Below the pieces are notes generated by a model. It was given only the letters and a program-made list of their open reading frames with translations, was not told where the DNA came from and searched no databases. Both the position numbers and the translations under genes were made by a program. A stretch of 64,000 nt of DNA. Origin: Candidatus Parcubacteria bacterium (GTDB lineage Bacteria > Patescibacteriota > Minisyncoccia > Phycocordibacterales > Zambryskibacteraceae). Shown one piece after another: positions 19,062 through 61,988 of this stretch. Location of the stretch: assembly GCA_019661785.1 (NCBI GenBank), contig JAIFWP010000003.1:31009-95008 (forward strand), read 5' to 3'. Positions within the stretch are counted from its first letter, which is position 1; each line of letters opens with the position of its first letter.

Positions 19062-19128
19062 GGCAAAAGTATATAAGAAAAAACCCCACGAGACGAATCT
19101 CGCAGGGCCTTTGTTTTCCTCCGCCTTG

Positions 19129-39585: not shown

Positions 39586-39591
39586 TCTCGC
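39521..39591 (-). tRNA. tRNA-Gly (anticodon CCC)
   Basis: Acceptor GCGAGAT/ATCTCGC, anticodon loop UUCCCAA, T-loop TTCGATT. Confidence 0.8.
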
Positions 39592-39593
39592 AG

Positions 39594-39676
39594 TGCCCGG
39601 GGTGAGACTCGAACTCACAAGGCCTTGCGGCCAAAGGATTTTAAGTCCTTCGTGTATACCATTCCACCACCCGGGC
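39594..39676 (-). tRNA. tRNA-Leu (anticodon UAA), long variable arm
   Basis: Acceptor GCCCGGG/CCCGGGC, anticodon loop CUUAAAA, T-loop TTCGAGT. Confidence 0.8.
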
Positions 39677-39678
39677 AG

Positions 39679-39750
39679 AGGCCTAGGGCGGAATCGCACC
39701 GCCGTATAACTCTTTTGCAGAGAGTTGCCTTACTACTTGGCGACTAGGCC
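39679..39750 (-). tRNA. tRNA-Cys (anticodon GCA)
   Basis: Acceptor GGCCTAG/CTAGGCC, discriminator U, anticodon loop CUGCAAA. Confidence 0.75.
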
Positions 39751-42053: not shown

Positions 42054-42100
42054 CCCAAAAGACTTTCAACCAACCGTTCATCTCATCTGTGGAGGTTCCT

Positions 42101-43063
42101 ATGTGGTTCAGAAAAAAGGATGCGGGGCCCAAAAGGCTCATGCCGAGGGGGCCCAAAGCCAAAAAGCCGAAAAGCCGCTTTAGGCTCTGGATGTCCGACC
42201 TTCCCTCGCGTGCAAGCACGAGGCTCGGGAAGAGCGCTGCATCGGCGAAGATCTTCTTCGCCGCTCGGTGGGCAAAGCTCGTGCCTTGGCTCAAGAGCAA
42301 GGCTCGCGTGCCAGACACAGGCCTGCCTGTCGGGATTATCGTGCAAGGCGTAGTAGCCATTGTAGTCGTCGCTATCCTGTGCTGGAAGGCGAGCGCGGCA
42401 ACCACGCACACGTGGGATAGCCTCAAGGCAATTCGCTGGCCCGTTCTGTCCCTGGCTTGGATTAGCGGAGTCGCCGTCGTACTCATGGCCTTGCTACTTA
42501 TCACTCTTGTCGTCATGAGACGCCGAGAGGCTAAGACAGCCCCAGCGCCGGAAGGACGTCCGTCTGCATCTACGTCAGGAACTCCCCCGCCGAAAAAGAA
42601 GAACGCGGGCAACGCACTCATTAACTTGGCGTTCAGCCTCGCAATCGTGGCGGCGCTCGTCTTCTTCGGTGTCCGCTTCTGGCAGATTTATCCAGAAGAG
42701 AAGCAGAAGGACAGGGAGTCGAAGGAGCGAATCGCCATTGCAGAGAGAGACCGAGTGGTCGGCTGCAAGACGAACGCCTGGGTAGACGGCTGCTCTACCC
42801 GTCCGAGGAAGTTCACCCGCATGATTTATGCGAGCGAACCGACCGAGGTCATCATGAATCCGGGTGACAAGCTCGTGTGGGTGGTCGACATCGGCCGCTG
42901 CAATGACTTGCTGACCTCGGCGCGCATGGAGGGCGAGTACAAGATCAGATCTTTCCGTACCAGACCGGGTGTCGACTCGCTGCAGGTGACCTTCCTCCTG
43001 CAGAAGACCGATGAACCTGAGAACCGCAAATGCGGCAAAACACCTACGACAGACATGTCGTAG
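42101..43063 (+). CDS. Hypothetical membrane protein (3 TM), Lys/Arg-rich N-terminus
   Basis: Start at MWFRKK with GGAGG upstream. No known domain. Confidence 0.45.
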   Translation: MWFRKKDAGPKRLMPRGPKAKKPKSRFRLWMSDLPSRASTRLGKSAASAKIFFAARWAKLVPWLKSKARVPDTGLPVGIIVQGVVAIVVVAILCWKASAATTHTWDSLKAIRWPVLSLAWISGVAVVLMALLLITLVVMRRREAKTAPAPEGRPSASTSGTPPPKKKNAGNALINLAFSLAIVAALVFFGVRFWQIYPEEKQKDRESKERIAIAERDRVVGCKTNAWVDGCSTRPRKFTRMIYASEPTEVIMNPGDKLVWVVDIGRCNDLLTSARMEGEYKIRSFRTRPGVDSLQVTFLLQKTDEPENRKCGKTPTTDMS

Positions 43064-44850: not shown

Positions 44851-45179
44851 GGAGCGCCAAGGATAGAGTATCCCTTATTCAAAAGCGCGTTGGTAATAGT
44901 ATATACGATGAGCCAGGCCGCCAGTATCCACACATAGCCGATAACCACCTTCATGAATATGCTCTTGGCCTCCTTTAGAGCTCCCGGGTCCCCGCCCGAA
45001 GTAAGGAGCTTGAAACCCGCATAGGCGAAAACTGCTGTCGCAAGGAGAGTAGAGATAATGACTAGGTCTTGTATCAGATTCTGCGACAGGAGAATGAGCT
45101 TCGCGTATGTACACGGATCTGCTTTCGTCCCATTGCACACTATGAGGTTAGCCCAGCCTGCAGCAAGATTGTTAATCAT
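44847..45179 (-). CDS. Small membrane protein, paralog 6
   Basis: Core AVFAYAGFKLLTSGGDPGALKEAKSIFMKVVIGYVWILAAWLIV. Confidence 0.55.
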   Translation of the reverse strand: MINNLAAGWANLIVCNGTKADPCTYAKLILLSQNLIQDLVIISTLLATAVFAYAGFKLLTSGGDPGALKEAKSIFMKVVIGYVWILAAWLIVYTITNALLNKGYSILGAP

Positions 45180-46456
45180 TTTATAAGAGCGCTAAGAGCA
45201 CTGTTCGCTACATTCACTGCCTCCTCGACTCTCGCGCGACCCGAGGTCACAGACTCAGCCATGGTACCGAATATGGCCTTAGACTTGGCCGGGTTTGGGT
45301 CGAGCCAACCTCTCGCTTGGAGACCAGCGCCGTAGAAGACGAACCCAGCCTGGTCAACAGGTTTAGCAGAGAGAAGGTCTCGTCGAGCAGGTACATATGA
45401 GGACCCGGTAGTGAGGCCCGCTACACCCGACTTGCTTACGAGAGACAATGCGCCTTGCAGTGCTGTAGCAGGATCCTTGCTGCCACGAGAGATAGCTACT
45501 CCGTAGAGCCTGCCGAATGTGATGGCCTTGCCAGAGACTCTCGACTGCGGCACTGGAGCGATAGAGAGATTCAAGGTCGGGTTCTTGGCCTTGAGCACAG
45601 GCAGCTCGCTTGCGAAGCCGAGATACATGGCGGACTTGCCAGAGGCGAAGCTAGTATCAGCTGCGAGGAGAGAGCGGTTCCAAGTATTGAAGGATTTGGT
45701 CGGGTCAGAGAATTGGGTATAGAAACTAAGTGCCGACTGAGCCGGGCTCTCTACGGTGTTGGCGCCTTGGTTCATGACAGCGACTAGAGACTGTCCCGAG
45801 TACGCAGTTATAGGCGTACCCGCCTGGAGCATAAGGAGAGAGAGTATCTCCTTCTCATGGGGGATGTTCTTGACCTCACCGAGCGCTATGGCTGAAGAAG
45901 TAATGTTGCCCGCTCCATCCTTAGCGGTAAGCTTATTTATATATTCATATATCTCGTCCCAATACACGAGAGGCTTGGCGAGAGAAGCCTTGGAGAAGAG
46001 GTCTCTGTTCCAATACAAGACCATAGGGTCCACATATAAAGGGAGAGCGTAAGTGCCGCTCCCTGCTTGGAAGAGCTCTCCCTCCTCTATGAAGGTCGAG
46101 ACAAAGTCAGAAGGCGTCACGCTCGAGCTCGGTATAAGTAGAATCCTGCTCTTCTCTGTAAGCAGGCTCTCGACAGGGATGATGACGAGGTCTGGACCTC
46201 TGCCTTCAGCCAAGGCCTCAACGAAGTCAGTGTCGAGAGAGTCGGCGGACTTCTCTGTATAGTTGAAGGTAACTGTCTCGCTCTTGTCGAGCCCAGTGCC
46301 GGCAAGGAGATTGTCGAAGTCATAACTAGAGAGCGAACCCCAGACCGAAAGGTTGATCTGTGCGGTACTGCTCCCCTTCGAACGCGAGAAGAGGATAACA
46401 GCCAATATGATGAAGGCGCCGAAGACGATAAGGAGCCCTACTTGGAACTTACTCAT
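45176..46456 (-). CDS. Extracellular solute-binding protein (ABC transporter substrate-binding, family 1-like), membrane-anchored
   Basis: N-terminal TM anchor, roughly 400 aa periplasmic-binding-protein fold. Confidence 0.6.
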   Translation of the reverse strand: MSKFQVGLLIVFGAFIILAVILFSRSKGSSTAQINLSVWGSLSSYDFDNLLAGTGLDKSETVTFNYTEKSADSLDTDFVEALAEGRGPDLVIIPVESLLTEKSRILLIPSSSVTPSDFVSTFIEEGELFQAGSGTYALPLYVDPMVLYWNRDLFSKASLAKPLVYWDEIYEYINKLTAKDGAGNITSSAIALGEVKNIPHEKEILSLLMLQAGTPITAYSGQSLVAVMNQGANTVESPAQSALSFYTQFSDPTKSFNTWNRSLLAADTSFASGKSAMYLGFASELPVLKAKNPTLNLSIAPVPQSRVSGKAITFGRLYGVAISRGSKDPATALQGALSLVSKSGVAGLTTGSSYVPARRDLLSAKPVDQAGFVFYGAGLQARGWLDPNPAKSKAIFGTMAESVTSGRARVEEAVNVANSALSALIK

Positions 46457-46461
46457 TAACT

Positions 46462-47004
46462 CTATTGTAGAGGCTTTTTGAAAATGAGGCCATAGTGGTG
46501 TTCCCCAGCCTCGAACTTCCTCTCGAAGTTGAGCCCGAGAGTGATAAAGAGCTCTTTGGCCTCTGTCTCGCTTGTAGGCTTCCTGTCACTTGCCTTTAAG
46601 GTGTCCGCGAGGAACGACAAGTCAGCCCACTCAACCACGCAGACCTTGCCTCCAGGGCGCAAAATGCGCACAGCCTCTCTTACCGCGCCCAGCTTGTCGC
46701 CTAGCTGGAAGAGGATATTGGAGAATATCACTCCATCGACGGCTCCATCTCGGAGCTTAGTGCCATGCGGCTTCTCTATGTCGCCATGGACGACCTCTAT
46801 GTTGCCGCGACCGCTCTTAAGAGCCTCACTTTTGAGCTTAACGAGCATATCCTCGCTTAGGTCTATGGCATATACGGCGCCGCTCTCGCCAAGAGACTTC
46901 GAGAGAGCGACAGCATAGTGCCCCGCCCCGCTGCCGAAGTCGGCCACCTTCTGCCCCGGCGTAAAGCCGAATTCCAAAACATTTCTCTCCGGATCAGTGA
47001 ACAT
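46462..47004 (-). CDS. Class I SAM-dependent methyltransferase
   Basis: Motif I VADFGSGAGHYA, post-I acidic residue (AIDLSE), motif II/III. Confidence 0.8.
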   Translation of the reverse strand: MFTDPERNVLEFGFTPGQKVADFGSGAGHYAVALSKSLGESGAVYAIDLSEDMLVKLKSEALKSGRGNIEVVHGDIEKPHGTKLRDGAVDGVIFSNILFQLGDKLGAVREAVRILRPGGKVCVVEWADLSFLADTLKASDRKPTSETEAKELFITLGLNFERKFEAGEHHYGLIFKKPLQ

Positions 47005-47153
47005 ATATTAATTGTATCCTACTTCGCTCTCGCTACGCAGAACAAGTCAGATATTTGACAAGCATAGATAATAAGGATACAGTGAGCTGAGTAAGCACAA
47101 GCGTGGACACACGTCTTCACTTGGAGTCACCCGAACCTTTAGGAGATTTGCAG

Positions 47154-47618
47154 ATGAGAATGATACGCATTAGCGCAGTGCTCGGCTGCTTGGCAGCTCT
47201 CTCGCTCGCGGCACCCGCCGTGGCGCAGCAGAAGGTCTCCATGACGCTCCAGGCGCGCGAAGCCAGCAGTCAGGGCCTCGGAGGCCCCTCGGCCCTCATG
47301 TCGCTCTACGCGACGCCGGATAGCGCAAGCGGCGTCACCCGCGTGGTGAGCGTCGCGAAGGGCAAACCCTACACCCTCGACATGCGGCCGACCGGCGCGA
47401 ACCTGTGCCAGGTCTGGAATCCTGACCCCAGGGTTCAGAACTGGAGCAACATCGCGCTCGAGAACGGCGCCTACCACTCGAGGCAGATCGATAAGACGCA
47501 TTCATGGTATGGGAAGGACATCAACATGCGGTGCGGCGTCGCCCATGAGAACGAGCTCACTCACGCAATCGAGTTCTCTCAAGTCGCCGTCGCGAAGCTC
47601 ACCTTCGTAGCCAAGTAG
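47154..47618 (+). CDS. Hypothetical secreted protein (start at MRMIRIS; GC-rich)
   Basis: Signal peptide MRMIRISAVLGCLAALSLAAPAVAQQ and a strong downstream terminator. Confidence 0.5.
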   Translation: MRMIRISAVLGCLAALSLAAPAVAQQKVSMTLQAREASSQGLGGPSALMSLYATPDSASGVTRVVSVAKGKPYTLDMRPTGANLCQVWNPDPRVQNWSNIALENGAYHSRQIDKTHSWYGKDINMRCGVAHENELTHAIEFSQVAVAKLTFVAK

Positions 47619-47649
47619 CGGAGCGAAGAAGGCGGAGAGCGGAGCTGTC

Positions 47650-47690
47650 CCCGGCACACACTTGTGTGTGCCGGGGATTTTCTATATTAC
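47650..47690 (+). terminator. Intrinsic terminator
   Basis: CCCCGGCACACACttgtGTGTGTGCCGGGGattttct. Confidence 0.7.
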
Positions 47691-47830
47691 TAAAAGAAAC
47701 TGAAGAATTATCTTGCGTCACGGAAAGAGCCGAAAGGATTTTCGAGCCTCTCGCAGCGCGACTGGCGCGAGAGAGCGAAATTTTCACCAGAAAATTATCG
47801 CGAGGCTAAGAAAATCTTTTCGGCTCTGAA

Positions 47831-50290
47831 CTACAAGCAGATAAGCGAAGCCAAACTATCCCCTTCTCTCAATTTCATAATCCTGACTCCCTGAGTCGAG
47901 CGGCCGAGCACTGGCACTTCATTCAAATCCACTCGGACCACTTGAGACTTCTTCGATATAGCTATGACCTCAGACTCTTCCTCAGTCACTAGCTGCGAGG
48001 CCATCACCGGACCGGTCTTGGCTGTAACCTTCGAGGTCAGTATCCCTGAGCCTCCCCTGCCCTGTGTCTTATATTCGCCAAGATCAGTGCGCTTGCCGTA
48101 GCCGTTGCCAGAGATGACGAGGAGGCAAGCACCCTTCCACTTAGGCTTTATGATATGCGCTCCAACTACCTCATCCTTCTTATCGAGCTTAATAGCTCTA
48201 ACACCGCCAGCAGCACGACCCATCTCGCGGATGTCCGAATCCTTGAAGCGTATAGACATGCCCTCCTTGGTTACTATAGATATGTCGTCCCCCTTCTCCG
48301 CATGTCCGACAGCCATGAGCTTATCTCCGGCATCTAGGCGGATAGCGATGATGCCGCTAGCCCTTACATCGTGGAAGCTCTTGGCCGAGACGCGCTTGCC
48401 TGTGCCGTTCTTAGTCACAAGCACTAGCGAGCCCTCAATGTTCTTAAGCTCCTTCGGCATGGCGAGGATAGACGTCACCTTCTCGTCATCTGAGAGCGAG
48501 ATGAAGTTCATAATGGACTTACCCCTCGTAGCGCGCTTACCCTCCGGTATGTCATACATCTTTATCTGATAGGCCTTGCCCTTGTCGGTGAAGAAGAGAA
48601 GGTCCGAGTGCGTCGAAGCCGTGAGGAATATGGTGACGAAGTCCTCTTCCTTAGTATCGAGGTCGATGACGCCCACGCCTCCGCGCTTCTGTCTCTTGTA
48701 CTCATGAGGGTCTGTGCGCTTCACATATCCACCGCTCGTGAGGACGAGTGCTTGCTCCTCGTCAGGTATTAGGTCCTCGACTGATATAACCTTGGCTCCG
48801 CCCTTCACCACCTTGGTCCTGCGCTCGTCACCATACTTAGTCTGGATGTTTACTAGTTCGTCTTTCACCACGCTGCGAATCTTTTTTTGCGAGCCGAGCA
48901 AGTCCTTGAGTTCTGCAATGAGAGCTTGGACCTCCTTTAACTCGTCTTCTATCTTCTTCCTCTCAAGGCCGGCAAGCTTCTGCAAGCGCATCTCAAGAAT
49001 GGCGTTGGCCTGTAGCTCGCTAAACTTAAACTCCTTCATGAGCGCAGCTCTCGCATCGTCAACGGTCTTCGAGGCGCGTATGAGCTTAACAATGGCATCG
49101 ATATGGTCGAGGGCCTTCTTGAGTCCAAGGAGTATATGTTCGCGAGCCTCGGCTTGCGCAAGGTCGAAGGCCGAGCGGCGTCGCACCACCTCCTCTCGGT
49201 GCTTTATGAATTCGACAAGCATCGACTTCAAGCTCATGGTCTGCGGCACGCCGTCGACGAGGGCAACCAAGTTCACATGGAAGGTCTCTTCAAGCTGAGT
49301 ATGTTTATATAGAGCGTTCAAGACCTTCTGCGGCTGGCTGCCCTGCTTTAAGTCTATGGCGATGCGGATATCCTTGGTCGACTCGTCCCGGAGACCCTTC
49401 ACGCCTTCGATCTTCTTCTCTCTCACGAGGTCGGCAATCTTGCCTATGAGGTCGGCTTTGTTCACCCTATAAGGAATCTCGGTGATGATAATCTGATTGC
49501 CGCCCTTAGTCTCCTCCACAATCTCCGCCACTCCACGCATGAGGATGCCTCCGCGGCCAGTAGCATACGCGTGAGCAATGTCCTTCTGATTGAAAATGAT
49601 TCCGCCTGTTGGGAAGTCAGGACCCTTCACAAACTCCAAGAGGTCCTCAGTAGTAGCCTCAGGATCATTAATAAGCATGATGGTCGCGTCTATGACCTCG
49701 TTCATGTTGTGCGGAGGGATGTTCGTAGCCATACCAACGGCAATACCAAGAGTGCCGTTTAGGAGCAGGTTCGGCGCTGCTGAAGGCAAGACGACGGGCT
49801 CCTTCTTCGTCCCGTCGTAGTTGGGTCGGAAGTTCACCGTATCCTTCTCTATATCCGCAAGGAGCTCGCCCGCAACGCGAGACATCTTGGCCTCGGTGTA
49901 ACGATATGCGGCTGCGCCGTCGCCGTCTATGGAGCCAAAGTTACCCTGGCCGATGACAAGCGGATAGCGCGTAGCAAAGTCCTGCGCGAGCTTGACCATG
50001 GCGTCATATACAGACGCGTCGCCGTGCGGGTGGTACGAGCCGAGCACCTCTCCGACTACCGTAGCGCTCTTACGAGTCTTAGCCGAGGCCGAGAGGCCTA
50101 TCTGGTTCATGGCAAAGAGGATGCGGCGATGCACCGGCTTCAACCCATCTCGCACGTCAGGCAAGGCGCGGTCGGTGATGACCGACATAGCATAGTCGAT
50201 GAAGGACTCCTTCATCTCTGTCACGATGGACCTCGAGACGACCTTGTCCTGCCTGCCGGCAGGGATGTTTGTATCTTTAGTTTCCGCCAT
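47831..50290 (-). CDS. gyrA: DNA gyrase subunit A (type IIA topoisomerase A subunit)
   Basis: Catalytic Tyr region [13 protein letters not shown] region, and C-terminal beta-pinwheel repeats. Confidence 0.88.
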
Positions 50291-52944: not shown

Positions 52945-54120
52945 ATGGCATTATTCGGCAGGAAAAAGGCTCCCGTCGCAGAGGCGTCGGACGAGCAGGT
53001 AGAGGTTAAGCAAGCAGTCAAAGAGAAGGTAAAGAAAGAGATCGCGGCGCCTGAGGCAGACAACTCCCTCATGGGCTCGCTTGTGGCCAAGTCTCCTAAT
53101 CCTCCCAAGGTGGACGATGTGGTCGAGGGTCCAGTGCTCTCTATAGACAAGGGTGCTCTATACATTGACCTTCCTCCCTTCGGCACAGGTATCATCTACG
53201 GACGCGAGTTCATGAACGCGCGCGACATTGTGAAGCGCGTCAATGTGGGCGACACCGTCGCGGGCAAGGTGGTCGGCATGGGCGGCAAGGATGGATACAT
53301 AGAGATATCTCTCAAGGAAGCTCGCCAGGCTCTCATCTGGAGCGAGGCTGAAGAGGCTATCCGCGACAAGCGCATATACGAGCTTGCTATCACCGACGCC
53401 AACAAGGGCGGACTCATACTTAACTGGCAAGGCATACCTGGCTTCCTCCCCGCTTCTCAACTCAAGCCAGAGCACTATCCTCGCGTTTCTGACGGCGACA
53501 AGGACAAGATACTCGACGAGTTGCGCAAGCTCGTAGGAGAGAAGCTGTCCGTCACTATCATCGGTGCTACTCCTAAGGAGGGCAAGCTCATCTTCAGCGA
53601 GAAGAGCCCAGAGTCGAAGAATAAGGAGAACATCATCGCCAAGTACTCTCTCGGCGACGAGCTCACTGGCGAGGTCACTGGACTCGTAGACTTCGGAGTC
53701 TTCGTTAAACTCGAAGAGGGACTCGAAGGCCTCGTGCACATCTCGGAAATTGACTGGGGCCTTGTAGAGAACCCTAAGGCCATGTTCAAAATCGGCGAGA
53801 AGGTGAAGGTCAAGATTATCGAGATTAAGGACGACAAGATATCTCTCTCCATCAAGGCCTTGAAGGAGAACCCATGGAAGGAGGCTTCGGAGAAGTATCA
53901 CAAGGACGAGGTAGTGGACGGCGTCATCATCAAGTACAACAAGCATGGAGCTCTCGCCTCACTCGAGGAGGGCGTCGCGGGTCTCGTGCACGTCTCTGAG
54001 TTCGGCTCTGAGGATAAACTAAGGGAGAAGCTAGAGATGGGCAAGACCTACAGCTTCAAGATAACCCTCTTCGACCCTAAGGAGCAGAAGATGGCACTCT
54101 CGTTCGTAGATAAAAAGTAA
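52945..54120 (+). CDS. rpsA: 30S ribosomal protein S1 (four S1 domains)
   Basis: Repeated S1 OB-fold motifs (G.V.G.V..G.FV). Confidence 0.88.
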   Translation: MALFGRKKAPVAEASDEQVEVKQAVKEKVKKEIAAPEADNSLMGSLVAKSPNPPKVDDVVEGPVLSIDKGALYIDLPPFGTGIIYGREFMNARDIVKRVNVGDTVAGKVVGMGGKDGYIEISLKEARQALIWSEAEEAIRDKRIYELAITDANKGGLILNWQGIPGFLPASQLKPEHYPRVSDGDKDKILDELRKLVGEKLSVTIIGATPKEGKLIFSEKSPESKNKENIIAKYSLGDELTGEVTGLVDFGVFVKLEEGLEGLVHISEIDWGLVENPKAMFKIGEKVKVKIIEIKDDKISLSIKALKENPWKEASEKYHKDEVVDGVIIKYNKHGALASLEEGVAGLVHVSEFGSEDKLREKLEMGKTYSFKITLFDPKEQKMALSFVDKK

Positions 54121-54716: not shown

Positions 54717-55208
54717 TTAATTATTGAACTCTGTCATCCCCTTTTCATAGCCTTGGGCCACTATGACCTCGACGGCATCGGCTACTTTTTTGAATATTTT
54801 CTTCAGTTCGAGCATTTCCTTCGGGGTGAACTTGCCGAGGATGTGCTTATCTACATCTGTTTTCTTCCCTATGCCTATGCGGATGCGGATGAAGGCCTTG
54901 GTCTTCACCGCATTTATTATAGACTCGACGCCCTTGTGCCCGCCTGAGCCTCTGTCGTATGAAATCTTCATGGTGCCTAGCGGCAAGTCGAGGTCGTCGT
55001 AGATGACTATGAGCTTTTCTGCTGCCTTCTTGCTCTTTATCGCCTTGGCTACGCCAGAGCCTGACTTGTTCATGAAAGTATCCAGATGAACTACCTTCAA
55101 CTTTGGTATTTCGCGCTTTTCCACCACCTCTAGAGCCAGCCGGCCCGTGTTGTGGCGGGTCTCGGCATACTCAGCACCCGGATTTCCGAGTCCGACAATT
55201 GTGTACAT
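54717..55208 (-). CDS. pth: Peptidyl-tRNA hydrolase
   Basis: Start at MYTIVGLGNPG. Contains HN.G and D..LP.G motifs. Confidence 0.9.
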   Translation of the reverse strand: MYTIVGLGNPGAEYAETRHNTGRLALEVVEKREIPKLKVVHLDTFMNKSGSGVAKAIKSKKAAEKLIVIYDDLDLPLGTMKISYDRGSGGHKGVESIINAVKTKAFIRIRIGIGKKTDVDKHILGKFTPKEMLELKKIFKKVADAVEVIVAQGYEKGMTEFNN

Positions 55209-55238
55209 GTGGGAAGTATAATACAATGTCCGAAAATT

Positions 55239-55793
55239 ATGCAGCAAGAAACGAGCTTCTGGAGGGAATTAGTCAAGCTCGCCGTCATAACGGCGGTAGT
55301 TGTCATCCCCTTCAGGCTCTTCGTGGCTCAGCCCTTCGTCGTAGATGGAGCATCCATGGATCCGACCTTCGCCTCGGGCCAATATCTCATCGTTGACGAG
55401 CTCTCGTACCACTTTGAGACCCCTCCCAGAGGCTCGGTCATCATCTTCCGCTACCCTAAGGACGAGTCCAAGTACTTCATAAAGCGCATCATCGGCTTGC
55501 CGAACGAAACGGTGAAGCTCGAGCACGGCAAAGTGACTATAGTGAACAAAGAGCATCCCGAAGGTTTCGCTCTCGACGAGCCTTATGTAGAGCTCACTAA
55601 GGACGATACATCAAGCTACAACCTCTCTGATGGCGAGTACTTCGTCATGGGCGACAACCGCGCAGGCAGCGCCGACTCGCGCTACTGGGGACCGGTGCCA
55701 ACGAGGGATATCATCGGCCGGCCAATACTACGCCTCTGGCCGCCAAGTCTCTGGCCGGGCAAATTTACCGAACCAACAAATGCGCAAAACTGA
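55239..55793 (+). CDS. lepB: Signal peptidase I
   Basis: S26 boxes: VDGASMDPTF, KRIIGLP, GDNRAGSADSRYWG. Confidence 0.85.
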   Translation: MQQETSFWRELVKLAVITAVVVIPFRLFVAQPFVVDGASMDPTFASGQYLIVDELSYHFETPPRGSVIIFRYPKDESKYFIKRIIGLPNETVKLEHGKVTIVNKEHPEGFALDEPYVELTKDDTSSYNLSDGEYFVMGDNRAGSADSRYWGPVPTRDIIGRPILRLWPPSLWPGKFTEPTNAQN

Positions 55794-56874
55794 GTTCGAC
55801 AAGCCTCTATGGATTGCGGCGCACTTCGGCTTCACGCCGATAGAGGCTCCTATAGTCGGAGATCTTGACCTGCGCATGACTGCCGACTGCGAGGAAAATA
55901 CAAAGAGCTTCTGCAATGCGCCTGAGAAAGCCGCCTTCCTCCGCACATATCTAGAGAAGAAATATTCAGACCTCCCCCATCCCTTGGCCCTCTCTTGGCG
56001 CAAGGCTCGTGACTACTCTCTTGAGCTCATAGGTTATCCGACGGGAGTAGCCGAGGCCAAGCTCATACGCACCTCTCTCTCGATCCTCTCCGAAGATCAC
56101 AAAGAAGGCATGACCGTCGAGATAAACTCTATAGGAGACAAGGACTCTGTGGCATCCTACGAACGCGAGCTCCACAACTTCGTCAGGAAAATTGCCGGCA
56201 ACCTCTCCGCCGAGATGAAGAAATTATTTAAAGAAGACATCTTCGCCGTGGCCAAAGTGAAGGACGAGGTAGTGAAAGGCGCTCCGCAGTCCATATCCTT
56301 CCTCTCGGGAGGGAGCCGAGAGCGTTTCAAGGACGTGCTCGAGTACCTTGAGGCGCTTGGGGTAGAGTACCGCTTCGCTCCAGACCTCGTGGGAGTCAAG
56401 AACCTCTGCTCAGAGACTCTCTTTGCCATCCGAGACAGCGAAGGCAGGCTCCTCGCCGCCGGATACCACTACTCGAGGCTCGGCAAAAGATTTGGCATCA
56501 AGAAGGAGGTCTCGCTCATTGGCGCAACTATATATGGCGAGAAGAAGCCCAAAGACCCTACTGCGAAGATTTACAAAGAGGCGCCGAAGCCTAAGTTCTA
56601 TCTCCTCCATCTTGGCCGCGAGGCCCGCATGAAGGCCCTCTCTCTCATCGAACTCCTGCGCGAGAACAAGGTCCCCATATACCACTTCCTCGGACGAGAG
56701 AAGCTCGGTGCCCAGATGGAGCTCGCCGACAAGCTCCGCACCCCATACCTTATGATTGTCGGACAGAAGGAGGCTCTCGACCACACTGTCACTATCAGGA
56801 ATGTTGCCAGCCGTGCCCAGGAGACAGTCCCCTTCGCCACCCTGCCTCAATACTTGAAGCACTTGCCTTTTTAG
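55780..56874 (+). CDS. Histidyl-tRNA synthetase-like protein with degenerate catalytic motifs (HisZ-like paralog)
   Basis: It aligns to HisRS along the catalytic core (MTVEINSIGDKDSV versus VTLELNSIGSLEAR) and has a class IIa anticodon-binding domain (KFYLLHLGREARMKALSLIELLRENKVPIY..). It lacks motif 2 FRYERPQ/GRYRQF. Confidence 0.65.
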   Translation: MRKTEFDKPLWIAAHFGFTPIEAPIVGDLDLRMTADCEENTKSFCNAPEKAAFLRTYLEKKYSDLPHPLALSWRKARDYSLELIGYPTGVAEAKLIRTSLSILSEDHKEGMTVEINSIGDKDSVASYERELHNFVRKIAGNLSAEMKKLFKEDIFAVAKVKDEVVKGAPQSISFLSGGSRERFKDVLEYLEALGVEYRFAPDLVGVKNLCSETLFAIRDSEGRLLAAGYHYSRLGKRFGIKKEVSLIGATIYGEKKPKDPTAKIYKEAPKPKFYLLHLGREARMKALSLIELLRENKVPIYHFLGREKLGAQMELADKLRTPYLMIVGQKEALDHTVTIRNVASRAQETVPFATLPQYLKHLPF

Positions 56875-56921: not shown

Positions 56922-57239
56922 ATGGCAGATAGGCTCGACTTCGTGATGAACGACAGGCTCGGCTATGGCCGTCTCCTGACGCCGGACGGCAAGTCTCGCA
57001 TCGTGCTTTCAAAATGCATGGGCAGGGAGATGGTGAGATACTTGCTCGAGAGGAAGGAAGCGGGCGATGCAGAAGCTCGTAGCACGCTCGACAAAATCGA
57101 CGCCGCGACGAATCTCGACGAGAGAATCGCACTGGGCAAGAGTCTCATCGGGGTGAAAGGTCCCATGGGCCGTGCCGAAGTCGTGTCCGGACTCATGAGC
57201 CTCAACACGATGGACAGCCCTCGCCTGTTGCCAAACTAG
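56922..57239 (+). CDS. Hypothetical small protein
   Basis: 105 aa ORF followed by a strong terminator. Confidence 0.4.
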   Translation: MADRLDFVMNDRLGYGRLLTPDGKSRIVLSKCMGREMVRYLLERKEAGDAEARSTLDKIDAATNLDERIALGKSLIGVKGPMGRAEVVSGLMSLNTMDSPRLLPN

Positions 57240-57257
57240 CGCTCCTCGCCTCCCCCA

Positions 57258-57295
57258 GAGCCCCGTTCCGACCTAAGTCGGAACGGGGCTTTTTG
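57258..57295 (+). terminator. Intrinsic terminator, twin of the one at 12078
   Basis: gaGCCCCGTTCCGACctaaGTCGGAACGGGGCttttt. Confidence 0.7.
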
Positions 57296-57353
57296 ATTTA
57301 CTGGCCCTTGCCACAGCGACAATGATGTGCTAGATTATCCACTCATGTTAGGA

Positions 57354-57605
57354 ATGACAAACGTCGAAGTGGTCAAAGGACCCAACGAGAACAACTTAAG
57401 CGTCCTTAGACGCTTTCAAAAGCGCGTCCAGGGTTCCGGAGTCCTTATGAAGGTCCGCTCCAAGCGCTACAGCGAGCGCGTCAAGAGCGAGAATGTGAAG
57501 CGAGCCAAGACCCTCGCCTACCTGAAAAAGAAGGACGAGATGAACGAGCTCGTGAAGCTCGGCAAGGTCAATGAACTCCAAAAGTTTGGCCGCAAAAGGA
57601 GATAA
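57354..57605 (+). CDS. rpsU: 30S ribosomal protein S21
   Basis: LRRFQKRVQGSGVLMKVRSKRYSE..KRAK matches the S21 consensus (LRRFKR..GVL.E.RRR.YEKP...RKR). Confidence 0.7.
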   Translation: MTNVEVVKGPNENNLSVLRRFQKRVQGSGVLMKVRSKRYSERVKSENVKRAKTLAYLKKKDEMNELVKLGKVNELQKFGRKRR

Positions 57606-57987
57606 CAGAGACGATAACAAGGGCGCCAAGATAAGCGACGAGTTAGTCGGGCTAGCCAAAGATGCTGTCCTCGGCAACGCGTACGAGCTCTCTCTCGTCT
57701 TCTGCGGCAACAACCTCTCTCAAGAACTGAATCGTACCTACAGAGGCAAGGACAAGCCGACTAACGTACTCGCCTTCCCGCTATCGAAGACCTCAGGCGA
57801 GATATTCATAAACACCGAGCATTTGGACGGATTCAGAGTCGAGGAACTGCTTGTCCACGCACTCCTCCATTTGAAAGGAATGCTCCACGGCGCTAAAATG
57901 GAGAGCGAGGAAAAACGATTTTTAAAATTACTCTTTAATGGCACGACCACTCTCAGTCGGGATAGACATAGGCAGCCAAAACGTTAA
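57571..57987 (+). CDS. ybeY: Endoribonuclease YbeY
   Basis: Zinc-binding H..H.LHL.G..H motif (VHALLHLKGMLHG). Confidence 0.75.
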   Translation: MNSKSLAAKGDNRDDNKGAKISDELVGLAKDAVLGNAYELSLVFCGNNLSQELNRTYRGKDKPTNVLAFPLSKTSGEIFINTEHLDGFRVEELLVHALLHLKGMLHGAKMESEEKRFLKLLFNGTTTLSRDRHRQPKR

Positions 57988-59140
57988 GGTCGTCATCGCC
58001 CATGAGATAGAGGAGAACGGGCGCATAGTGCCAAAGGTCATCGGTCAGGCCACTGCTGAGACCAAGGGCCTCCACAGGGGCTATATATTGAATCCCTCTG
58101 AGGCCTCTAGGAGCGTCCGCTTAGCCATAGACAAGGCGGAGAAGGCCGCAGGGGTCACTGTGAAGCGCGCCTTCGTCTCAGTAGGCGGAGTAGGCCTAGG
58201 GAGCGCCGTAGCCTCTGGCTCGGTAGCTATAGCAAGGGCTGACCTCGAGGTCACCAACCTCGACCTGGAGAGCGCCCAGGAGGCTGCCGAGGCCGCCATC
58301 CCCGAGGCGCTCATTTTAAACAGGAAGGTCATCAACACTATCCCCCTCCTCACGCTCCTAGACGGCAAGCCTGCTCTTGGGCGCATTGAGGGCATGAAGG
58401 CTGGCAAGCTAGAGGTTAAAGTGCTTTTCATAACATGCCTCGAGCATCACTTGGAGGACCTTATACGCGTAGTAGAGGGAGCCGGAGTCGAGGTGGTCGA
58501 CGTTGTAGCCGCACCCATAGCTGCCTCCTTCGTGACTCTGTCTAAGAAGCAGAAGCGCGCCGGCTGCGCACTCATAAATATTGGAGCCGAGACACTCTCA
58601 CTCGTTGTCTTCGAGAACTCGAACCCCATCTCGCTCGAGGTCTTCGAGATGGGCGGAGCCGACGTGACGAACGACATGGCTCTCGGCTTGAAGATATCCC
58701 TTGAGGAAGCTGAGTCCGTTAAACTCGGCTCCTGGACTCGGAGCGACTATCCGAAGAAGAAGATTGAGGACCTTATCGGACGCAGATTGTCTGACATGTT
58801 CGACCTCGTGGCCGCACACTTGAAGAGGATAGGCCGACACTCTCTCCTCCCCGCCGGTATCGTCATCACTGGCGGCAGCGCCGGACTTGCCGGACTGCGC
58901 GACTTCGCCGTTGAGGTGCTGAAGCTCCCTGCTAAAGTGGGCGAGATCCACTTCGGCGAGGAGGAGAAGTATGCTACCAAAGACCTCCCTTGGTCGGTCG
59001 CCTACGGGCTAGCTATAGTGGGCTTCAACTCCGACAATGAGCAGGGTCTCGTGGGCCAGAGAGGTATGGACAAGCTCGCCGAAGGCGGCAAGAAGGGTCT
59101 CCGCACCCTCACCCACTGGTTCAACAAGTTCATACCCTAG
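57938..59140 (+). CDS. ftsA: Cell division protein FtsA
   Basis: Actin-like ATPase (VGIDIGSQNVKVV, INIGAETLSLVVF, ITGGSAGLAGL). Confidence 0.9.
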   Translation: MARPLSVGIDIGSQNVKVVIAHEIEENGRIVPKVIGQATAETKGLHRGYILNPSEASRSVRLAIDKAEKAAGVTVKRAFVSVGGVGLGSAVASGSVAIARADLEVTNLDLESAQEAAEAAIPEALILNRKVINTIPLLTLLDGKPALGRIEGMKAGKLEVKVLFITCLEHHLEDLIRVVEGAGVEVVDVVAAPIAASFVTLSKKQKRAGCALINIGAETLSLVVFENSNPISLEVFEMGGADVTNDMALGLKISLEEAESVKLGSWTRSDYPKKKIEDLIGRRLSDMFDLVAAHLKRIGRHSLLPAGIVITGGSAGLAGLRDFAVEVLKLPAKVGEIHFGEEEKYATKDLPWSVAYGLAIVGFNSDNEQGLVGQRGMDKLAEGGKKGLRTLTHWFNKFIP

Positions 59141-59269
59141 GCCGTCTTACGAGACCCCGCTTTCCAAAAACCGATTTGACTCTGTTGTCAACGGTTTCTT
59201 TTTTATTTGCGTTTGTGTACTATGTTTGCACCTCAAATTTAGAGGCGACATTCTCACTAAATCATACTT

Positions 59270-60448
59270 ATGCCACAAGTCAAACCTGATATAGAATCCT
59301 TCGCCCGCATCAAGGTCATCGGTGTCGGAGGCTCCGGCGGCAATACGGTAAACCACATGATCAACTCCAAGGTCCGCGGAGTCGACTTCATTGCTGTGAA
59401 CACGGATGCTCAGGATCTCCATAAATCCCTAGCTAAAAGAAAGGTTCATGTAGGCAAGAACCTCACACGAGGCCTCGGTGCTGGCATGAATCCAGAGCTC
59501 GGCAAGCGCGCTGTTGAAGAGACCAAGGAAGAAATACAGGAAGCTATCAAGGGTGCGGACATGGTCTTCGTCGCTTGCGGCATGGGTGGAGGCACCGGCT
59601 CCGGAGCTGCTCCCGTCATCGCCCGCACCGCGAAAGAAAATGGCATTCTCACAGTGGCTGTTGTGACAAAACCATTCTTCTTCGAGGGTGTCCAGCGCAT
59701 GAAAATCGCCGAGCAGGCCATCGAGGAATTGAAGGGCGCCGTCGATGCCATCATCATCATCCCTAACGACCGCCTGATGGCGACTATCAATAAGGATACG
59801 AGCGCCAAGAACGCCTTTGCCATCTGCGACAACATCTTGAAGGAGGCTGTCGAGGGCATCTCGGACCTCATCACTATGCCGGGCATCATCAACATCGACT
59901 TCGCTGACATCAGAGCCGTCATGGAGAATGCGGGTGCCGCACTCATGGGCATCGGTACCGGCCAAGGCGACAAGCGTGCCGAGGAAGCCGCCCGCGCTGC
60001 CATCTCCTCCCCTCTCCTTGAGATATCAATTAACGGCGCTAAGGGTGTACTCTTCTCCATCGCCGGCGGAGACGACCTCACCATGTTCGAGATACAGGAT
60101 GCTGCCAAGGTCATCACTGAGTCGGTGGATCCTAATGCCAAGATTATCTTCGGCACAGTCCACGACGAGAAGCTCAAAAAGGGCGAGGTCAAGGTCACGG
60201 TCATAGCAGCCTCCTTCCCTGAGAACGCTCAGCGCAAGGTCACAACCCTCTTCGGCAAGGATGCAGCGAATGAAGCTGAGAAGTCGAAGATGTTCAGCTC
60301 CTTCAGCACCTCTAAAAACGAGAAAGGCGAGAAGTCAGAAGAACTCCCCCTACCACCAAAGAAGGAAGTTGTGGTAGCTAAGATAGATAATGAAGAAGAC
60401 GACTGGGGCGCAGTTCCCTCTTTCCTACGCCGTTCAAAGTTGAAGTAA
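59270..60448 (+). CDS. ftsZ: Cell division protein FtsZ
   Basis: Tubulin signature GGGTGSG, T7 loop NIDFADI. Confidence 0.95.
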   Translation: MPQVKPDIESFARIKVIGVGGSGGNTVNHMINSKVRGVDFIAVNTDAQDLHKSLAKRKVHVGKNLTRGLGAGMNPELGKRAVEETKEEIQEAIKGADMVFVACGMGGGTGSGAAPVIARTAKENGILTVAVVTKPFFFEGVQRMKIAEQAIEELKGAVDAIIIIPNDRLMATINKDTSAKNAFAICDNILKEAVEGISDLITMPGIINIDFADIRAVMENAGAALMGIGTGQGDKRAEEAARAAISSPLLEISINGAKGVLFSIAGGDDLTMFEIQDAAKVITESVDPNAKIIFGTVHDEKLKKGEVKVTVIAASFPENAQRKVTTLFGKDAANEAEKSKMFSSFSTSKNEKGEKSEELPLPPKKEVVVAKIDNEEDDWGAVPSFLRRSKLK

Positions 60449-61038: not shown

Positions 61039-61067
61039 CCAAATAGCCTGTGGTATCCTTATGTCCT

Positions 61068-61988
61068 ATGTATGAACTCATTATCGTTGGAGGAGGCCCA
61101 GCCGGAGTAGCTGCCGGAGTTTACGCCGCTAGGAAGCGCCTTCGCACCCTGCTCATCACAGAGAGCTTCGGCGGACAGTCCATAGACTCTATGGGTATAG
61201 AGAACTGGATAGGCACAGTGAACATCTCCGGCCCAGACTTAGCCAAGTCGCTAGAGACTCATATAAGGACTTATGCCGAGAGCACAGTGGATATCAAGAC
61301 CGGCATAAGGGCATCAAAGATAGAGAAGACTGAAGGAGGCTTCAAGGTAGAGGTCGGCGGCGAGACCCTTGAGACTAAGACCATCCTCATAGCCACAGGC
61401 TCCTCAAGGAGGAAGCTCGAGGTGCCTGGCGGCAAGGAGTATGAGAACAAGGGTATAACCTACTGTGCTTCATGCGATGGACCGCTCTTCTCCGGGGCTG
61501 ATGTGGCTGTGGTCGGCGGGGGCAATGCTGGCTTCGAGACGGCGGCGCAGCTCTTGGCCTATGCCAAGTCAGTCACTCTATTGAACCGCTCGGACAAATA
61601 CAAAGCCGACGAGATGACCGTGGAGAAGGTCCTCGCCCACCCCAACATGCGCGCGATACCAAACGCCATTCCTAAAGAAGTCCGCGGGGATAAGTTCGTG
61701 AACTCTCTTATATATACTGATGCCGTAACTAATGAAAAGCACTCACTCCCTGTGACAGGCATCTTCGTGGAGATTGGACTCATGCCAGCTACTGAGGTGG
61801 TGAAGGGTATCGTTGAGTTGAATGAGCGCAACCAAATTGTGATAGACCCGCGCACTCAGAGCACTCGCACAAATGGCATATGGGCCGCCGGGGATGTCAC
61901 TGACACTCTGTATCATCAGAACAACATCGCCGCCGGAGACGCCGTGCGTGCTCTCGAAGATATATATCTGCACTTGCGAGCTAGGTAG
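61068..61988 (+). CDS. trxB: Thioredoxin-disulfide reductase
   Basis: FAD motif IIVGGGPAG, redox CASCDG, NADPH motif VVGGGNAGFE, and C-terminal GDV. Confidence 0.85.
   Translation: MYELIIVGGGPAGVAAGVYAARKRLRTLLITESFGGQSIDSMGIENWIGTVNISGPDLAKSLETHIRTYAESTVDIKTGIRASKIEKTEGGFKVEVGGETLETKTILIATGSSRRKLEVPGGKEYENKGITYCASCDGPLFSGADVAVVGGGNAGFETAAQLLAYAKSVTLLNRSDKYKADEMTVEKVLAHPNMRAIPNAIPKEVRGDKFVNSLIYTDAVTNEKHSLPVTGIFVEIGLMPATEVVKGIVELNERNQIVIDPRTQSTRTNGIWAAGDVTDTLYHQNNIAAGDAVRALEDIYLHLRAR

What the first reader, a model, noticed from the sequence alone, without database searches (positions are those of the whole stretch)
55780..56874. Catalytically degenerate histidyl-tRNA synthetase paralog (HisZ-like) in a genome unlikely to make histidine
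Seen in sequence: the protein aligns to HisRS through the class II core and the HGPT-type anticodon-binding domain. It lacks the motif 2 arginine cluster (FRYERPQ / GRYRQF) needed for histidyl-adenylate formation. Established knowledge: HisZ is such a paralog and regulates HisG in histidine biosynthesis. Reduced-genome bacteria usually lack that pathway. This may therefore be a divergent but functional HisRS (which matters for recoding or tRNA-His identity), or a HisRS-like protein with a new role. Its start overlaps lepB by 14 nt.
Basis: partly seen in the sequence, partly recalled or inferred. Interest (0 to 1): 0.5.

Follow-up and report, generated by a model that had tools for sequence, protein, structure and literature searches.

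The report
Housekeeping hisS gene turned non-catalytic
In this Parcubacteria (CPR) genome the gene sitting exactly where related bacteria keep their histidyl-tRNA synthetase encodes a well-folded, selectively maintained copy that has lost the residues needed to activate histidine, which leaves open how these cells charge tRNA-His.

Summary
Window 55780-56874 (+) encodes a 364-aa, three-domain HisRS homologue with an intact HGTP anticodon-binding domain. It lacks the motif 2 arginine and loop, the HisA arginine and a conserved motif 3 arginine. It scores 96 bits on TIGR00442 against a cutoff of 286.75.

The interpretation needs correcting. This is not HisZ and not an extra paralogue. Canonical Parcubacteria hisS genes (TIGR00442 about 397 bits) occupy the same locus: gyrA, S1, pth, lepB, hisS, rpsU, ybeY, ftsA, ftsZ, trxB. 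All canonical loci with readable upstream sequence carry lepB directly upstream, so the window gene is the positional orthologue of hisS.

The degenerate form defines a large family of 257 sampled sequences with 0-1 of 7 HisRS motifs. Graded intermediates exist, and catalytic decay happened at least four times independently. The gene is under purifying selection (dN/dS about 0.02-0.14). Constraint is kept on the anticodon-binding domain, insertion domain and dimer motif 1, and lost at the ATP/adenylate site.

Best reading: a non-catalytic, tRNA-His-binding pseudo-synthetase. No second HisRS was found in the window or within 10 kb in 58 related genomes. Whole genomes could not be scanned, so the source of His-tRNA-His is unresolved.

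The parts
55780..56874 (+). CDS of the hisS-derived, catalytically degenerate HisRS homologue (364 aa)
55816..55857 (+). Motif 1 / dimer-interface remnant (residues 13-26, AAHFGFTPIEAPIV). G17, F18 and P24 are conserved in the family.
55975..56034 (+). Motif 2 remnant (residues 66-85, PHPLALSWRKARDYSLELIG). The loop is deleted and there is no FRxExPQxGRxR.
56140..56367 (+). Helical insertion domain (about residues 121-196), conserved (NSIGDKDS...YERELxxY; SRxxFKEVLEYLE)
56386..56481 (+). HisA/HisB remnants (residues 203-234). LVGVKNLC replaces LVRGLDYY and AAGYHYS replaces GGRYD. Elsewhere in the family G-x-R-Y is conserved.
56515..56547 (+). Motif 3 remnant (residues 246-256, LIGATIYGEKK). 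The arginine is not conserved across the family.
56599..56859 (+). HGTP-type anticodon-binding domain (residues 274-360). It is as conserved as in canonical HisRS.
55239..55793 (+). lepB (signal peptidase I). The ORF opens at 55152 and the likely ATG is at 55239. Its stop overlaps the start of the hisS-like gene by 14 nt. lepB lies directly upstream of both degenerate and canonical hisS in relatives.
54717..55247 (-). pth (peptidyl-tRNA hydrolase), a conserved neighbour
52945..54120 (+). S1-domain protein, a conserved neighbour
56922..57239 (+). orf105, a lineage-specific ORF with no counterpart in related loci; possibly not a gene
57257..57292 (+). Terminator-like hairpin (16-pair stem plus T run) that closes the lepB / hisS-like unit
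57327..57605 (+). rpsU (S21) ORF, a conserved downstream neighbour
57571..57987 (+). ybeY ORF, a conserved downstream neighbour. Its HxxxHxxxxxH motif is encoded by CAC/CAT/CAC.
57938..60448 (+). ftsA (57938-59140) and ftsZ (59270-60448), conserved downstream neighbours
47831..50290 (-). gyrA, part of the wider collinear block shared with genomes that carry canonical hisS

Best explanation
The gene is the ancestral housekeeping hisS of this Parcubacteria lineage. It has been converted in place into a non-catalytic pseudo-synthetase.

It keeps the HisRS fold, the class II dimer motif 1, the helical insertion domain and a fully constrained anticodon-binding domain. It has lost the residues that bind ATP and stabilise histidyl-adenylate formation: the motif 2 Arg and loop, HisA Arg259 and the motif 3 Arg.

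The most likely mode of action (inferred, not shown) is that it still binds tRNA-His as a dimer through the anticodon-binding and insertion domains without charging it. It would then act as a tRNA-His-binding, handling or regulatory factor, co-expressed with lepB. His-tRNA-His would be made by another enzyme that has not been located.

Shown: homology, fold, loss of catalytic residues, positional orthology, purifying selection, and the pattern of retained and lost constraint.

Inferred: loss of activity, tRNA binding, and the existence of another HisRS.
For: Fold and architecture:
- AF2 pLDDT 94.
- The family profile aligns full length to HisRS 1qe0, E 1.5e-55.

Catalytic residues are absent in the window protein and in all 252 family members examined.

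TIGR00442 scores (cutoff 286.75) fall stepwise from canonical to window:
- P0305 397
- P0290 376
- P0265 267
- P0235 237
- P0132 158
- P0077 123
- P0002 103
- window 96

Same locus as canonical hisS:
- Direct look-ups of P0305, P0265, P0235, P0278, P0276 and P0272.
- In 80 metagenome loci of canonical type, lepB lies directly upstream wherever upstream sequence exists.
- 58 degenerate loci have the same gene order down to 31% identity.

Motif census: 108 sequences have 6-7 of 7 motifs, 257 have 0-1, and 9 are intermediate.

Purifying selection: dN/dS is 0.02-0.14 in both the catalytic-like part and the anticodon-binding domain.

Conservation by segment, given as all-degenerate/close-degenerate group against the canonical group:
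- Retained: anticodon-binding domain 0.63/0.76 against 0.78; insertion domain 0.53/0.64 against 0.70; motif 1 0.67/0.80 against 0.93.
- Lost: motif 2 0.43/0.59 against 0.85; motif 3 0.41/0.50 against 0.78.

Other points:
- The protein stays basic (pI 9.1), like canonical HisRS (8.75).
- Other aaRS genes in the window pass their model cutoffs.
- His codons are used normally, so charged tRNA-His is still needed.
Against: - No other HisRS gene was found. There is none in the 64-kb window and none within +-10 kb in 58 related genomes.
- No Parcubacteria-type hisS was seen at any second locus; every canonical-type locus with readable upstream sequence (more than 70) has lepB upstream. The enzyme assumed to do the charging is therefore hypothetical.
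- tRNA binding was not tested, and no tRNA-His gene was available for comparison.
- Loss of activity is inferred from residue roles known in E. coli and T. thermophilus HisRS (my own knowledge of that literature), not measured.
- dS is saturated for most pairs, so the dN/dS values are approximate.
- The conservation comparison uses groups of unequal diversity.
Confidence: 0.6

Rival explanations
1. It is the non-catalytic, tRNA-binding subunit of a heteromeric HisRS. A separately encoded catalytic HisRS-like protein would pair with it, in the way PheRS beta or GlyRS beta subunits serve their catalytic partners.
For: - The dimer motif 1 and all tRNA-contacting modules except the motif 2 loop are retained.
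- Repeated loss of catalytic residues with retention of the protein fits a division of labour.
Against: - No candidate catalytic partner was found in the window or within +-10 kb in 58 genomes, even with a lineage-specific catalytic-domain profile.
- No gene family is specifically linked to the degenerate loci.
Confidence: 0.12
2. It is still the cell's working HisRS and uses a radically altered active site.
For: - It is the positional orthologue of hisS.
- It is the only HisRS homologue seen in any examined stretch.
- It is under strong purifying selection.
- G-x-R-Y (the HisB remnant) and an acidic or His residue at the E131 position are fairly conserved.
Against: - The motif 2 arginine, the motif 2 loop, HisA R259 and the motif 3 arginine are all missing.
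- The positions that replace them are not conserved within the family (motif 2 and motif 3 conservation 0.43 and 0.41). A relocated active site should show conserved residues.
- To my knowledge no active class II synthetase lacks the motif 2 arginine.
- About 30 residues between motif 1 and the RPEGT strand are also deleted.
Confidence: 0.07
3. It is a HisZ-type regulatory subunit of ATP phosphoribosyltransferase (HisG).
For: - It is a HisRS homologue without catalytic residues, as HisZ is.
- There is a weak NF008942 hit, E 0.008.
Against: - No TIGR00443 hit.
- HisRS structures and profiles score better than HisZ.
- The anticodon-binding domain is intact and highly constrained.
- It has a housekeeping lepB/rpsU/ybeY context, not a his operon.
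- No hisG, hisD, hisC, hisB, hisH, hisA, hisF or hisI in about 2.0 Mb of window plus related loci.
- It descends from the local hisS, not from HisZ.
Confidence: 0.02
4. It is a decaying pseudogene remnant with no function.
For: - The catalytic motifs are lost.
- One relative (L042) has the gene split into two ORFs.
Against: - The ORF is intact in 55 or more species-level genomes.
- dN/dS is 0.02-0.14.
- The fold is confidently predicted.
- The family is large, with 292 clusters at 50% identity at E<=1e-30.
- The overlap with lepB is conserved.
Confidence: 0.03

Closest known systems
Canonical bacterial HisRS, specifically the Parcubacteria/Paceibacterota type (e.g. P0305, P0304; TIGR00442)
   Same: - Same fold and three-domain architecture.
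- Same genomic locus (lepB-hisS-rpsU-ybeY-ftsA-ftsZ).
- Shared lineage-specific sequence features: NSIGDK, EVLEYLE, LGxKKxxP, KPKxYxIQLGxEAKxKSL, GQKEAxxxTVxxRN...RxQxT.
   Different: - Lacks the N-terminal GxxD motif, the RPEGT context, the motif 2 Arg and loop, HisA Arg and motif 3 Arg.
- About 50-80 residues shorter.
- TIGR00442 score 96 bits against about 397.
HisZ (regulatory subunit of short-form ATP phosphoribosyltransferase)
   Different: - No TIGR00443 match.
- Keeps a constrained anticodon-binding domain.
- No his-operon or hisG context.
- Independent origin from the local hisS.
HisRS-like domain of the eIF2-alpha kinase GCN2
   Different: The GCN2 domain is eukaryotic and fused to a kinase. 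The window protein is a stand-alone 364-aa bacterial protein with no effector domain.
Non-catalytic class II synthetase-like subunits (PheRS beta catalytic-like domain; DNA polymerase gamma accessory subunit)
   Different: They belong to different families and have known partner subunits. No partner has been identified here.
Degenerate or truncated aaRS genes of extremely reduced insect endosymbionts (own knowledge, not tested here)
   Same: Erosion of synthetase genes in tiny, host-dependent genomes.
   Different: Here the erosion is confined to the catalytic site. The rest of the protein is under strong purifying selection across a large, free-ranging environmental clade.

Membership tests
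Histidine--tRNA ligase (HisRS; TIGR00442) | Class II catalytic core plus helical insertion domain plus HGTP anticodon-binding domain | tested here: met
Histidine--tRNA ligase (HisRS; TIGR00442) | Score at or above the curated TIGR00442 cutoff (286.75 bits) | tested here: not met
   96 bits, profile positions 124-405 only. Canonical relatives score 397-399.
Histidine--tRNA ligase (HisRS; TIGR00442) | Motif 2 arginine and loop (E. coli FRHERPQKGRYRQF, R113/R121) | tested here: not met
   Deleted in the window protein. Absent in all 252 family members.
Histidine--tRNA ligase (HisRS; TIGR00442) | HisA arginine (E. coli R259) and Y264 in LVRGLDYY | tested here: not met
   R259 is Gly in 203 of 252 members. 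Y264 is Cys, Ser or Ala.
Histidine--tRNA ligase (HisRS; TIGR00442) | Motif 3 arginine (E. coli R311, GxxxGxER) | tested here: not met
   Lys in the window protein. The column is not conserved: K59, R26, E26, P24.
Histidine--tRNA ligase (HisRS; TIGR00442) | Genomic position orthologous to hisS of related genomes | tested here: met
Histidine--tRNA ligase (HisRS; TIGR00442) | Histidine activation and tRNA-His charging activity | not testable with these tools
   Requires biochemistry or genetic complementation.
HisZ (ATP phosphoribosyltransferase regulatory subunit; TIGR00443) | Match to the HisZ models | tested here: not met
   No TIGR00443 hit at E<=1. NF008942 scores 14.8 bits against a cutoff of 643.
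HisZ (ATP phosphoribosyltransferase regulatory subunit; TIGR00443) | Co-occurrence with short-form hisG or a his operon | tested here: not met
   No his genes in the window plus 146 related loci, about 2.0 Mb. The context is lepB/rpsU/ybeY. Whole genomes were not scanned.
HisZ (ATP phosphoribosyltransferase regulatory subunit; TIGR00443) | HisRS-like core without aminoacylation residues | tested here: met
GCN2-type HisRS-like tRNA-sensing pseudo-enzyme | HisRS-like fold lacking catalytic residues | tested here: met
GCN2-type HisRS-like tRNA-sensing pseudo-enzyme | Fusion to a protein kinase effector domain | tested here: not met
   A 364-aa stand-alone protein. HGTP_anticodon is the only Pfam domain.
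GCN2-type HisRS-like tRNA-sensing pseudo-enzyme | Binding of (uncharged) tRNA | not testable with these tools
   Inferred only from the retained anticodon-binding domain and basic pI.

The most novel reading that the evidence does not exclude
A large clade of Parcubacteria has no catalytically competent histidyl-tRNA synthetase at all. Its only hisS homologue is this pseudo-enzyme. His-tRNA-His is then either made by an unknown route, possibly one that uses this protein as the tRNA-His-binding scaffold, or depends on the host. This would be the first such gap in the core translation apparatus of a free-ranging bacterial lineage.
Probability: 0.15. Interest if true: 0.95.

Novelty: new variant of a known kind. 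Interest (0 to 1): 0.66.

Why it matters
HisRS is a universal, essential, normally single-copy enzyme and a standard phylogenetic and completeness marker (TIGR00442). Here the syntenic hisS of a large CPR clade has repeatedly lost its catalytic residues while remaining under purifying selection.

- It is a natural series, from canonical through intermediates to fully degenerate forms, for studying how an essential enzyme becomes a pseudo-enzyme.
- It poses a directly testable question: which protein charges tRNA-His in these cells?
- Marker-based completeness and phylogeny pipelines will either miss or misannotate this gene. JGI calls it histidyl-tRNA synthetase, and NCBI calls it a hypothetical or anticodon-binding-domain protein.

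I found no description of it in the searchable literature.

Tried and rejected
- **Second hisS in the window.** tblastn with E. coli HisRS and hmmsearch with a canonical Parcubacteria catalytic-domain profile hit only the target gene.
- **Second hisS near the gene in relatives.** 58 GTDB genomes at +-10 kb gave none.
- **Second-locus copy of the Parcubacteria-type hisS.** All canonical loci read are at the lepB locus, so this was rejected as unlikely.
- **Contig-length matching.** I compared contig lengths between degenerate and canonical hit lists to find both genes on one contig. The only match was one coincidental 3,951-bp value from different sources.
- **IMG/VR scan for canonical motif 2 to seed CPR HisRS.** It returned one phage-like truncated HisRS (L063) and one match outside any ORF of 150 aa or more (L062).
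- **Extending the window.** The look-up of encoding contigs on the window protein failed because the protein is not in that index.
- **GenBank phage and PLSDB plasmid collections as a route to a whole CPR record.** They returned only ordinary host hisS at 21-25% identity.
- **afdb50 fold library.** Not available.
- **tRNA-His genes for identity elements.** None in the window or in the related loci scanned.
- **Gene families enriched next to degenerate versus canonical hisS.** Only rearrangement effects and spurious antisense ORFs appeared.
- **His depletion in neighbouring proteins of degenerate lineages.** None found.
- **Literature searches for a prior description.** Nothing relevant.
- **Third homologous-protein search.** I left it unused because no query could be designed that would rank an unknown xenologous HisRS within the 120 hits that are listed.
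Full report
**1. Observation.**

The ORF lister shows an ORF at 55630-56874 (+). The internal ATG at 55780 gives a 364-aa product whose N-terminus (MRKTEFDKPLWIAAHFGFTPIEAP) matches the starts of its homologues. This ATG lies 14 nt before the end of the lepB reading frame, which stops with TGA at 55791-55793. The protein is identical to NCBI 'hypothetical protein KW800_02670 [Candidatus Parcubacteria bacterium]' on a 114,758-bp contig.

Pfam sees only the HGTP anticodon-binding domain, residues 274-360. NCBIfam TIGR00442 (hisS) matches only its C-terminal two thirds, at 96 bits against a curated cutoff of 286.75. TIGR00443 (HisZ) does not match. The best PDB sequence hit is S. aureus HisRS, E 5.8e-13.

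**2. Fold.**

An AlphaFold2 model built on a 96-sequence family alignment is confident, with pLDDT 94 and pTM 0.93.
- By Foldseek the best matches are bacterial HisRS structures (4e51, 4rdx, 1adj; E about 1e-24), and no HisZ appears in the top 50.
- The family profile aligns full length to HisRS 1qe0 (profile 25-396 against residues 28-420, E 1.5e-55). HisZ 3od1 reaches only 1.3e-5.

It is therefore a complete three-domain HisRS homologue. It is not N-terminally truncated, but it is shortened by internal deletions.

**3. Catalytic residues.**

I aligned 252 family members with E. coli HisRS and then with canonical Parcubacteria HisRS. The roles of the E. coli residues come from my own knowledge of the HisRS structural and kinetic literature: the motif 2 R113 and motif 3 R311 bind ATP phosphates, HisA R259 is catalytic, and E83/T85/Q127/E131/Y264 line the histidine pocket.

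In the window protein:
- the motif 2 stretch FRHxxPQRGRxRE is replaced by a 19-residue gap (LALSW----RKARDYSLELIG);
- LVRGLDYY has become LVGVKNLC;
- GGRYD has become AGYHYS;
- GxGVDRV has become GATIYGEKK.

Across the family:
- R113 is a gap in 66% of members and otherwise P, K or S;
- R259 is Gly in 203 of 252;
- the R311 column is unconserved (K59, R26, E26, P24);
- Y264 is C, S or A.

No member has the motif 2 arginine context.

As an internal control, ProRS (1762-3015, minus strand) and SerRS (22763-24028, minus strand) in the same window pass their NCBIfam cutoffs. The genome's synthetases are therefore not generally too divergent to be recognised.

**4. It is the orthologue of hisS, not an extra paralogue.**

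The family is large. There are 945 clusters at 90% identity. Against the 1.84-billion-protein library, 292, 746 and 1696 representatives at 50% identity reach E<=1e-30, 1e-10 and 1e-3. Source names are Parcubacteria, Zambryskibacteria and Minisyncoccota.

In 58 species-representative genomes the gene sits in one conserved block: S1-domain protein, pth (minus strand), lepB, hisS-like, rpsU, ybeY, ftsA, ftsZ. This order holds down to 31% protein identity.

The most HisRS-like sequence among the remote hits was P0265. Used as a query, it retrieved canonical 'histidine--tRNA ligase' proteins of Paceibacterota (Yonath-, Nomura- and Vogelbacteria), which carry Pfam tRNA-synt_His. These have every HisRS motif and score 397-399 bits on TIGR00442.

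Their genomic context is the same block: gyrA, S1, pth, lepB, hisS, rpsU, ybeY, ftsA, ftsZ, trxB. The window is collinear with this block from the solute-binding protein and gyrA (45176-50290) to trxB (61050-61988).

A metagenome scan with a canonical catalytic-domain alignment returned 80 loci. Every one with readable upstream sequence has lepB directly upstream, and none shows a second HisRS hit.

Canonical and degenerate proteins also share lineage-specific sequence outside the catalytic residues.

**5. A graded series and repeated decay.**

In a census of seven HisRS motifs over 373 full-length sequences, 108 have 6-7 motifs, 257 have 0-1 and only 9 are intermediate.

TIGR00442 scores fall stepwise:

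| Sequence | TIGR00442 bits |
|---|---|
| P0305 | 397 |
| P0290 | 376 |
| P0265 | 267 |
| P0235 | 237 |
| P0132 | 158 |
| P0077 | 123 |
| P0002 | 103 |
| window | 96 |

P0265, P0235 and P0276 were confirmed to lie at the same lepB locus.

Three sequences are 70-74% identical to a canonical relative yet have substitutions concentrated on catalytic positions. Examples are FRHENPQRGRYREF changed to FRHGKTQHEKYREF with GFDRV changed to GVDQV, and LVRGLDYY changed to LSKTFNYY.

On a neighbour-joining tree rooted with E. coli, the root state is canonical. One clade holds 87 of the 98 non-canonical sequences sampled, including the window protein. Parsimony needs at least four losses. This is a rough tree, and long-branch attraction would make the count a lower bound.

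**6. Selection.**

Codon-level comparison of ten related gene pairs, nine among the fetched genomes plus window versus L002, gives dN/dS of 0.02-0.14, wherever dS could be estimated. This holds for both the catalytic-like plus insertion part and the anticodon-binding domain. The least saturated pair, L029/L021, has dS 0.54 and omega 0.12.

Column conservation by segment:

| Segment | Canonical | All degenerate | Close degenerate |
|---|---|---|---|
| N-terminus | 0.77 | 0.33 | 0.43 |
| E. coli residues 49-77 | 0.86 | 0.37 | 0.54 |
| RPEGT helix | 0.84 | 0.44 | 0.62 |
| Motif 2 | 0.85 | 0.43 | 0.59 |
| Motif 3 | 0.78 | 0.41 | 0.50 |
| Anticodon-binding domain | 0.78 | 0.63 | 0.76 |
| Segment after motif 2 | 0.72 | 0.60 | 0.72 |
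| Insertion domain | 0.70 | 0.53 | 0.64 |
| HisB | 0.85 | 0.66 | 0.84 |
| Motif 1 | 0.93 | 0.67 | 0.80 |

The degenerate group has lost constraint in the first five segments and keeps near-canonical constraint in the last five.

Nearly all of the invariant or near-invariant polar residues of the family lie in the anticodon-binding domain (R294, Q312, E331, R340, Q347). Both groups are basic, with pI 8.75 and 9.06.

This is not a pseudogene. What is preserved are the dimer interface and the tRNA-contacting modules, and what is lost is the ATP/adenylate site.

**7. Is there another HisRS?**

I could not scan whole genomes. The evidence I could gather is as follows.
- There is no other HisRS-like ORF in the 64-kb window.
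- There is none within +-10 kb in 58 relatives.
- No Parcubacteria-type hisS was seen away from the lepB locus in any of the canonical-type loci with readable upstream sequence (more than 70).
- No contig is shared between the degenerate and canonical hit lists.

Histidine is still decoded. The YbeY zinc motif HxxxHxxxxxH is written CAC/CAT/CAC. The His content of six neighbouring proteins is the same in degenerate and canonical lineages.

Either a HisRS of another type lies elsewhere in these genomes, or they have none.

**8. HisZ and histidine synthesis.**

The evidence against the HisZ reading:
- No HisZ model matches.
- No his-operon context.
- tblastn with E. coli HisG, D, C, B, H, A, F and I gave no hit in about 2.0 Mb, comprising the window and 146 related loci.
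- The anticodon-binding domain is intact.
- The protein descends from the local hisS.

**9. Mechanism and rivals.**

My best-supported reading (confidence 0.6) is a non-catalytic descendant of hisS. It would still dimerise and bind tRNA-His through the anticodon-binding and insertion domains, and it is co-expressed with lepB. The start overlaps lepB by 14 nt. A strong terminator-like hairpin at 57257-57292 and a promoter-like site at 57308-57336 separate it from rpsU. What it does with the bound tRNA is unknown.

Repeated loss of catalysis with retention of the protein suggests that the non-catalytic role already existed in the canonical enzyme.

Rival readings:
- tRNA-binding subunit of a heteromeric HisRS (0.12);
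- still-active HisRS (0.07), which conflicts with the lack of any conserved replacement residues;
- decaying pseudogene (0.03);
- HisZ (0.02).

**10. Comparison with known systems, and novelty.**

It works most like other HisRS-derived pseudo-enzymes, namely HisZ and the GCN2 HisRS-like domain. It is a member of neither family. By descent and position it is hisS, but it fails the defining catalytic features of HisRS.

Literature searches found no description of it.

I rate it a new variant of a known kind. The unexcluded radical reading, that there is no HisRS at all in this clade (probability about 0.15), would be of very high interest.

**Limits.**
- Loss of activity and tRNA binding are inferred.
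- dS is saturated for most pairs.
- The conservation groups differ in diversity.
- The tree is neighbour-joining only.

Noticed in passing
window 1762-3015 (-): ProRS of only 417 aa. It matches the bacterial proS profiles in two stretches, so the INS editing domain appears to be missing. It still passes the TIGR00409 cutoff at 386 bits against 307.
   Followed up: partly
window 15301-16653 (-): A single 450-aa ORF combines SAICAR synthetase (PurC) and AIR carboxylase (PurE) domains.
   Followed up: no
window 18862-20349 (+), 40691-41977 (+), 42089-43063 (+): Three long ORFs (495, 428 and 324 aa) have no Pfam match at E<=1e-5.
   Followed up: no
window 39520-39750 (-): tRNA-Gly(CCC), tRNA-Leu(UAA) and tRNA-Cys(GCA) are packed with 1-nt spacers. 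The window holds 12 tRNA genes and no tRNA-His.
   Followed up: no
window 56922-57239 (+) and 57257-57336: orf105 lies between the hisS-like gene and rpsU. It has no counterpart in 58 related loci and no Pfam hit. It is followed by a 16-pair terminator-like hairpin and a promoter-like site ahead of rpsU.
   Followed up: partly
window 35280-36776 (+): Translation initiation factor IF-2 is only 498 aa, so it lacks the long N-terminal region of typical bacterial IF-2.
   Followed up: no
P0290, P0279, P0276 (L154/L155 10001-11335 for P0276): These hisS genes are 70-74% identical to canonical relatives, and their substitutions are concentrated on catalytic residues (E115, motif 2 loop arginines, R259 or R311). 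P0290 still passes the TIGR00442 cutoff at 376 bits, so annotation pipelines would call it a normal HisRS.
   Followed up: partly
L042 4036-5335: In one related MAG the degenerate hisS gene is split into two adjacent ORFs. This is either a frameshift or an assembly error.
   Followed up: no
P0229 (576 aa): This family member has an insert of about 150 residues, low-complexity and rich in Ser, Glu and Gln, inside the catalytic-like domain.
   Followed up: no
L063 2799-3551 (IMG/VR contig IMGVR_UViG_3300020577_006613, 100 kb): A phage-like contig encodes a 250-aa HisRS catalytic-core fragment with an intact FRYERPQAGRYREF motif 2 and no anticodon-binding domain.
   Followed up: no
L064 3640-7121: In the Parcubacteria genome that carries canonical hisS P0305, a run of five ankyrin-repeat genes lies just upstream of the S1-pth-lepB-hisS block.
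   Followed up: no
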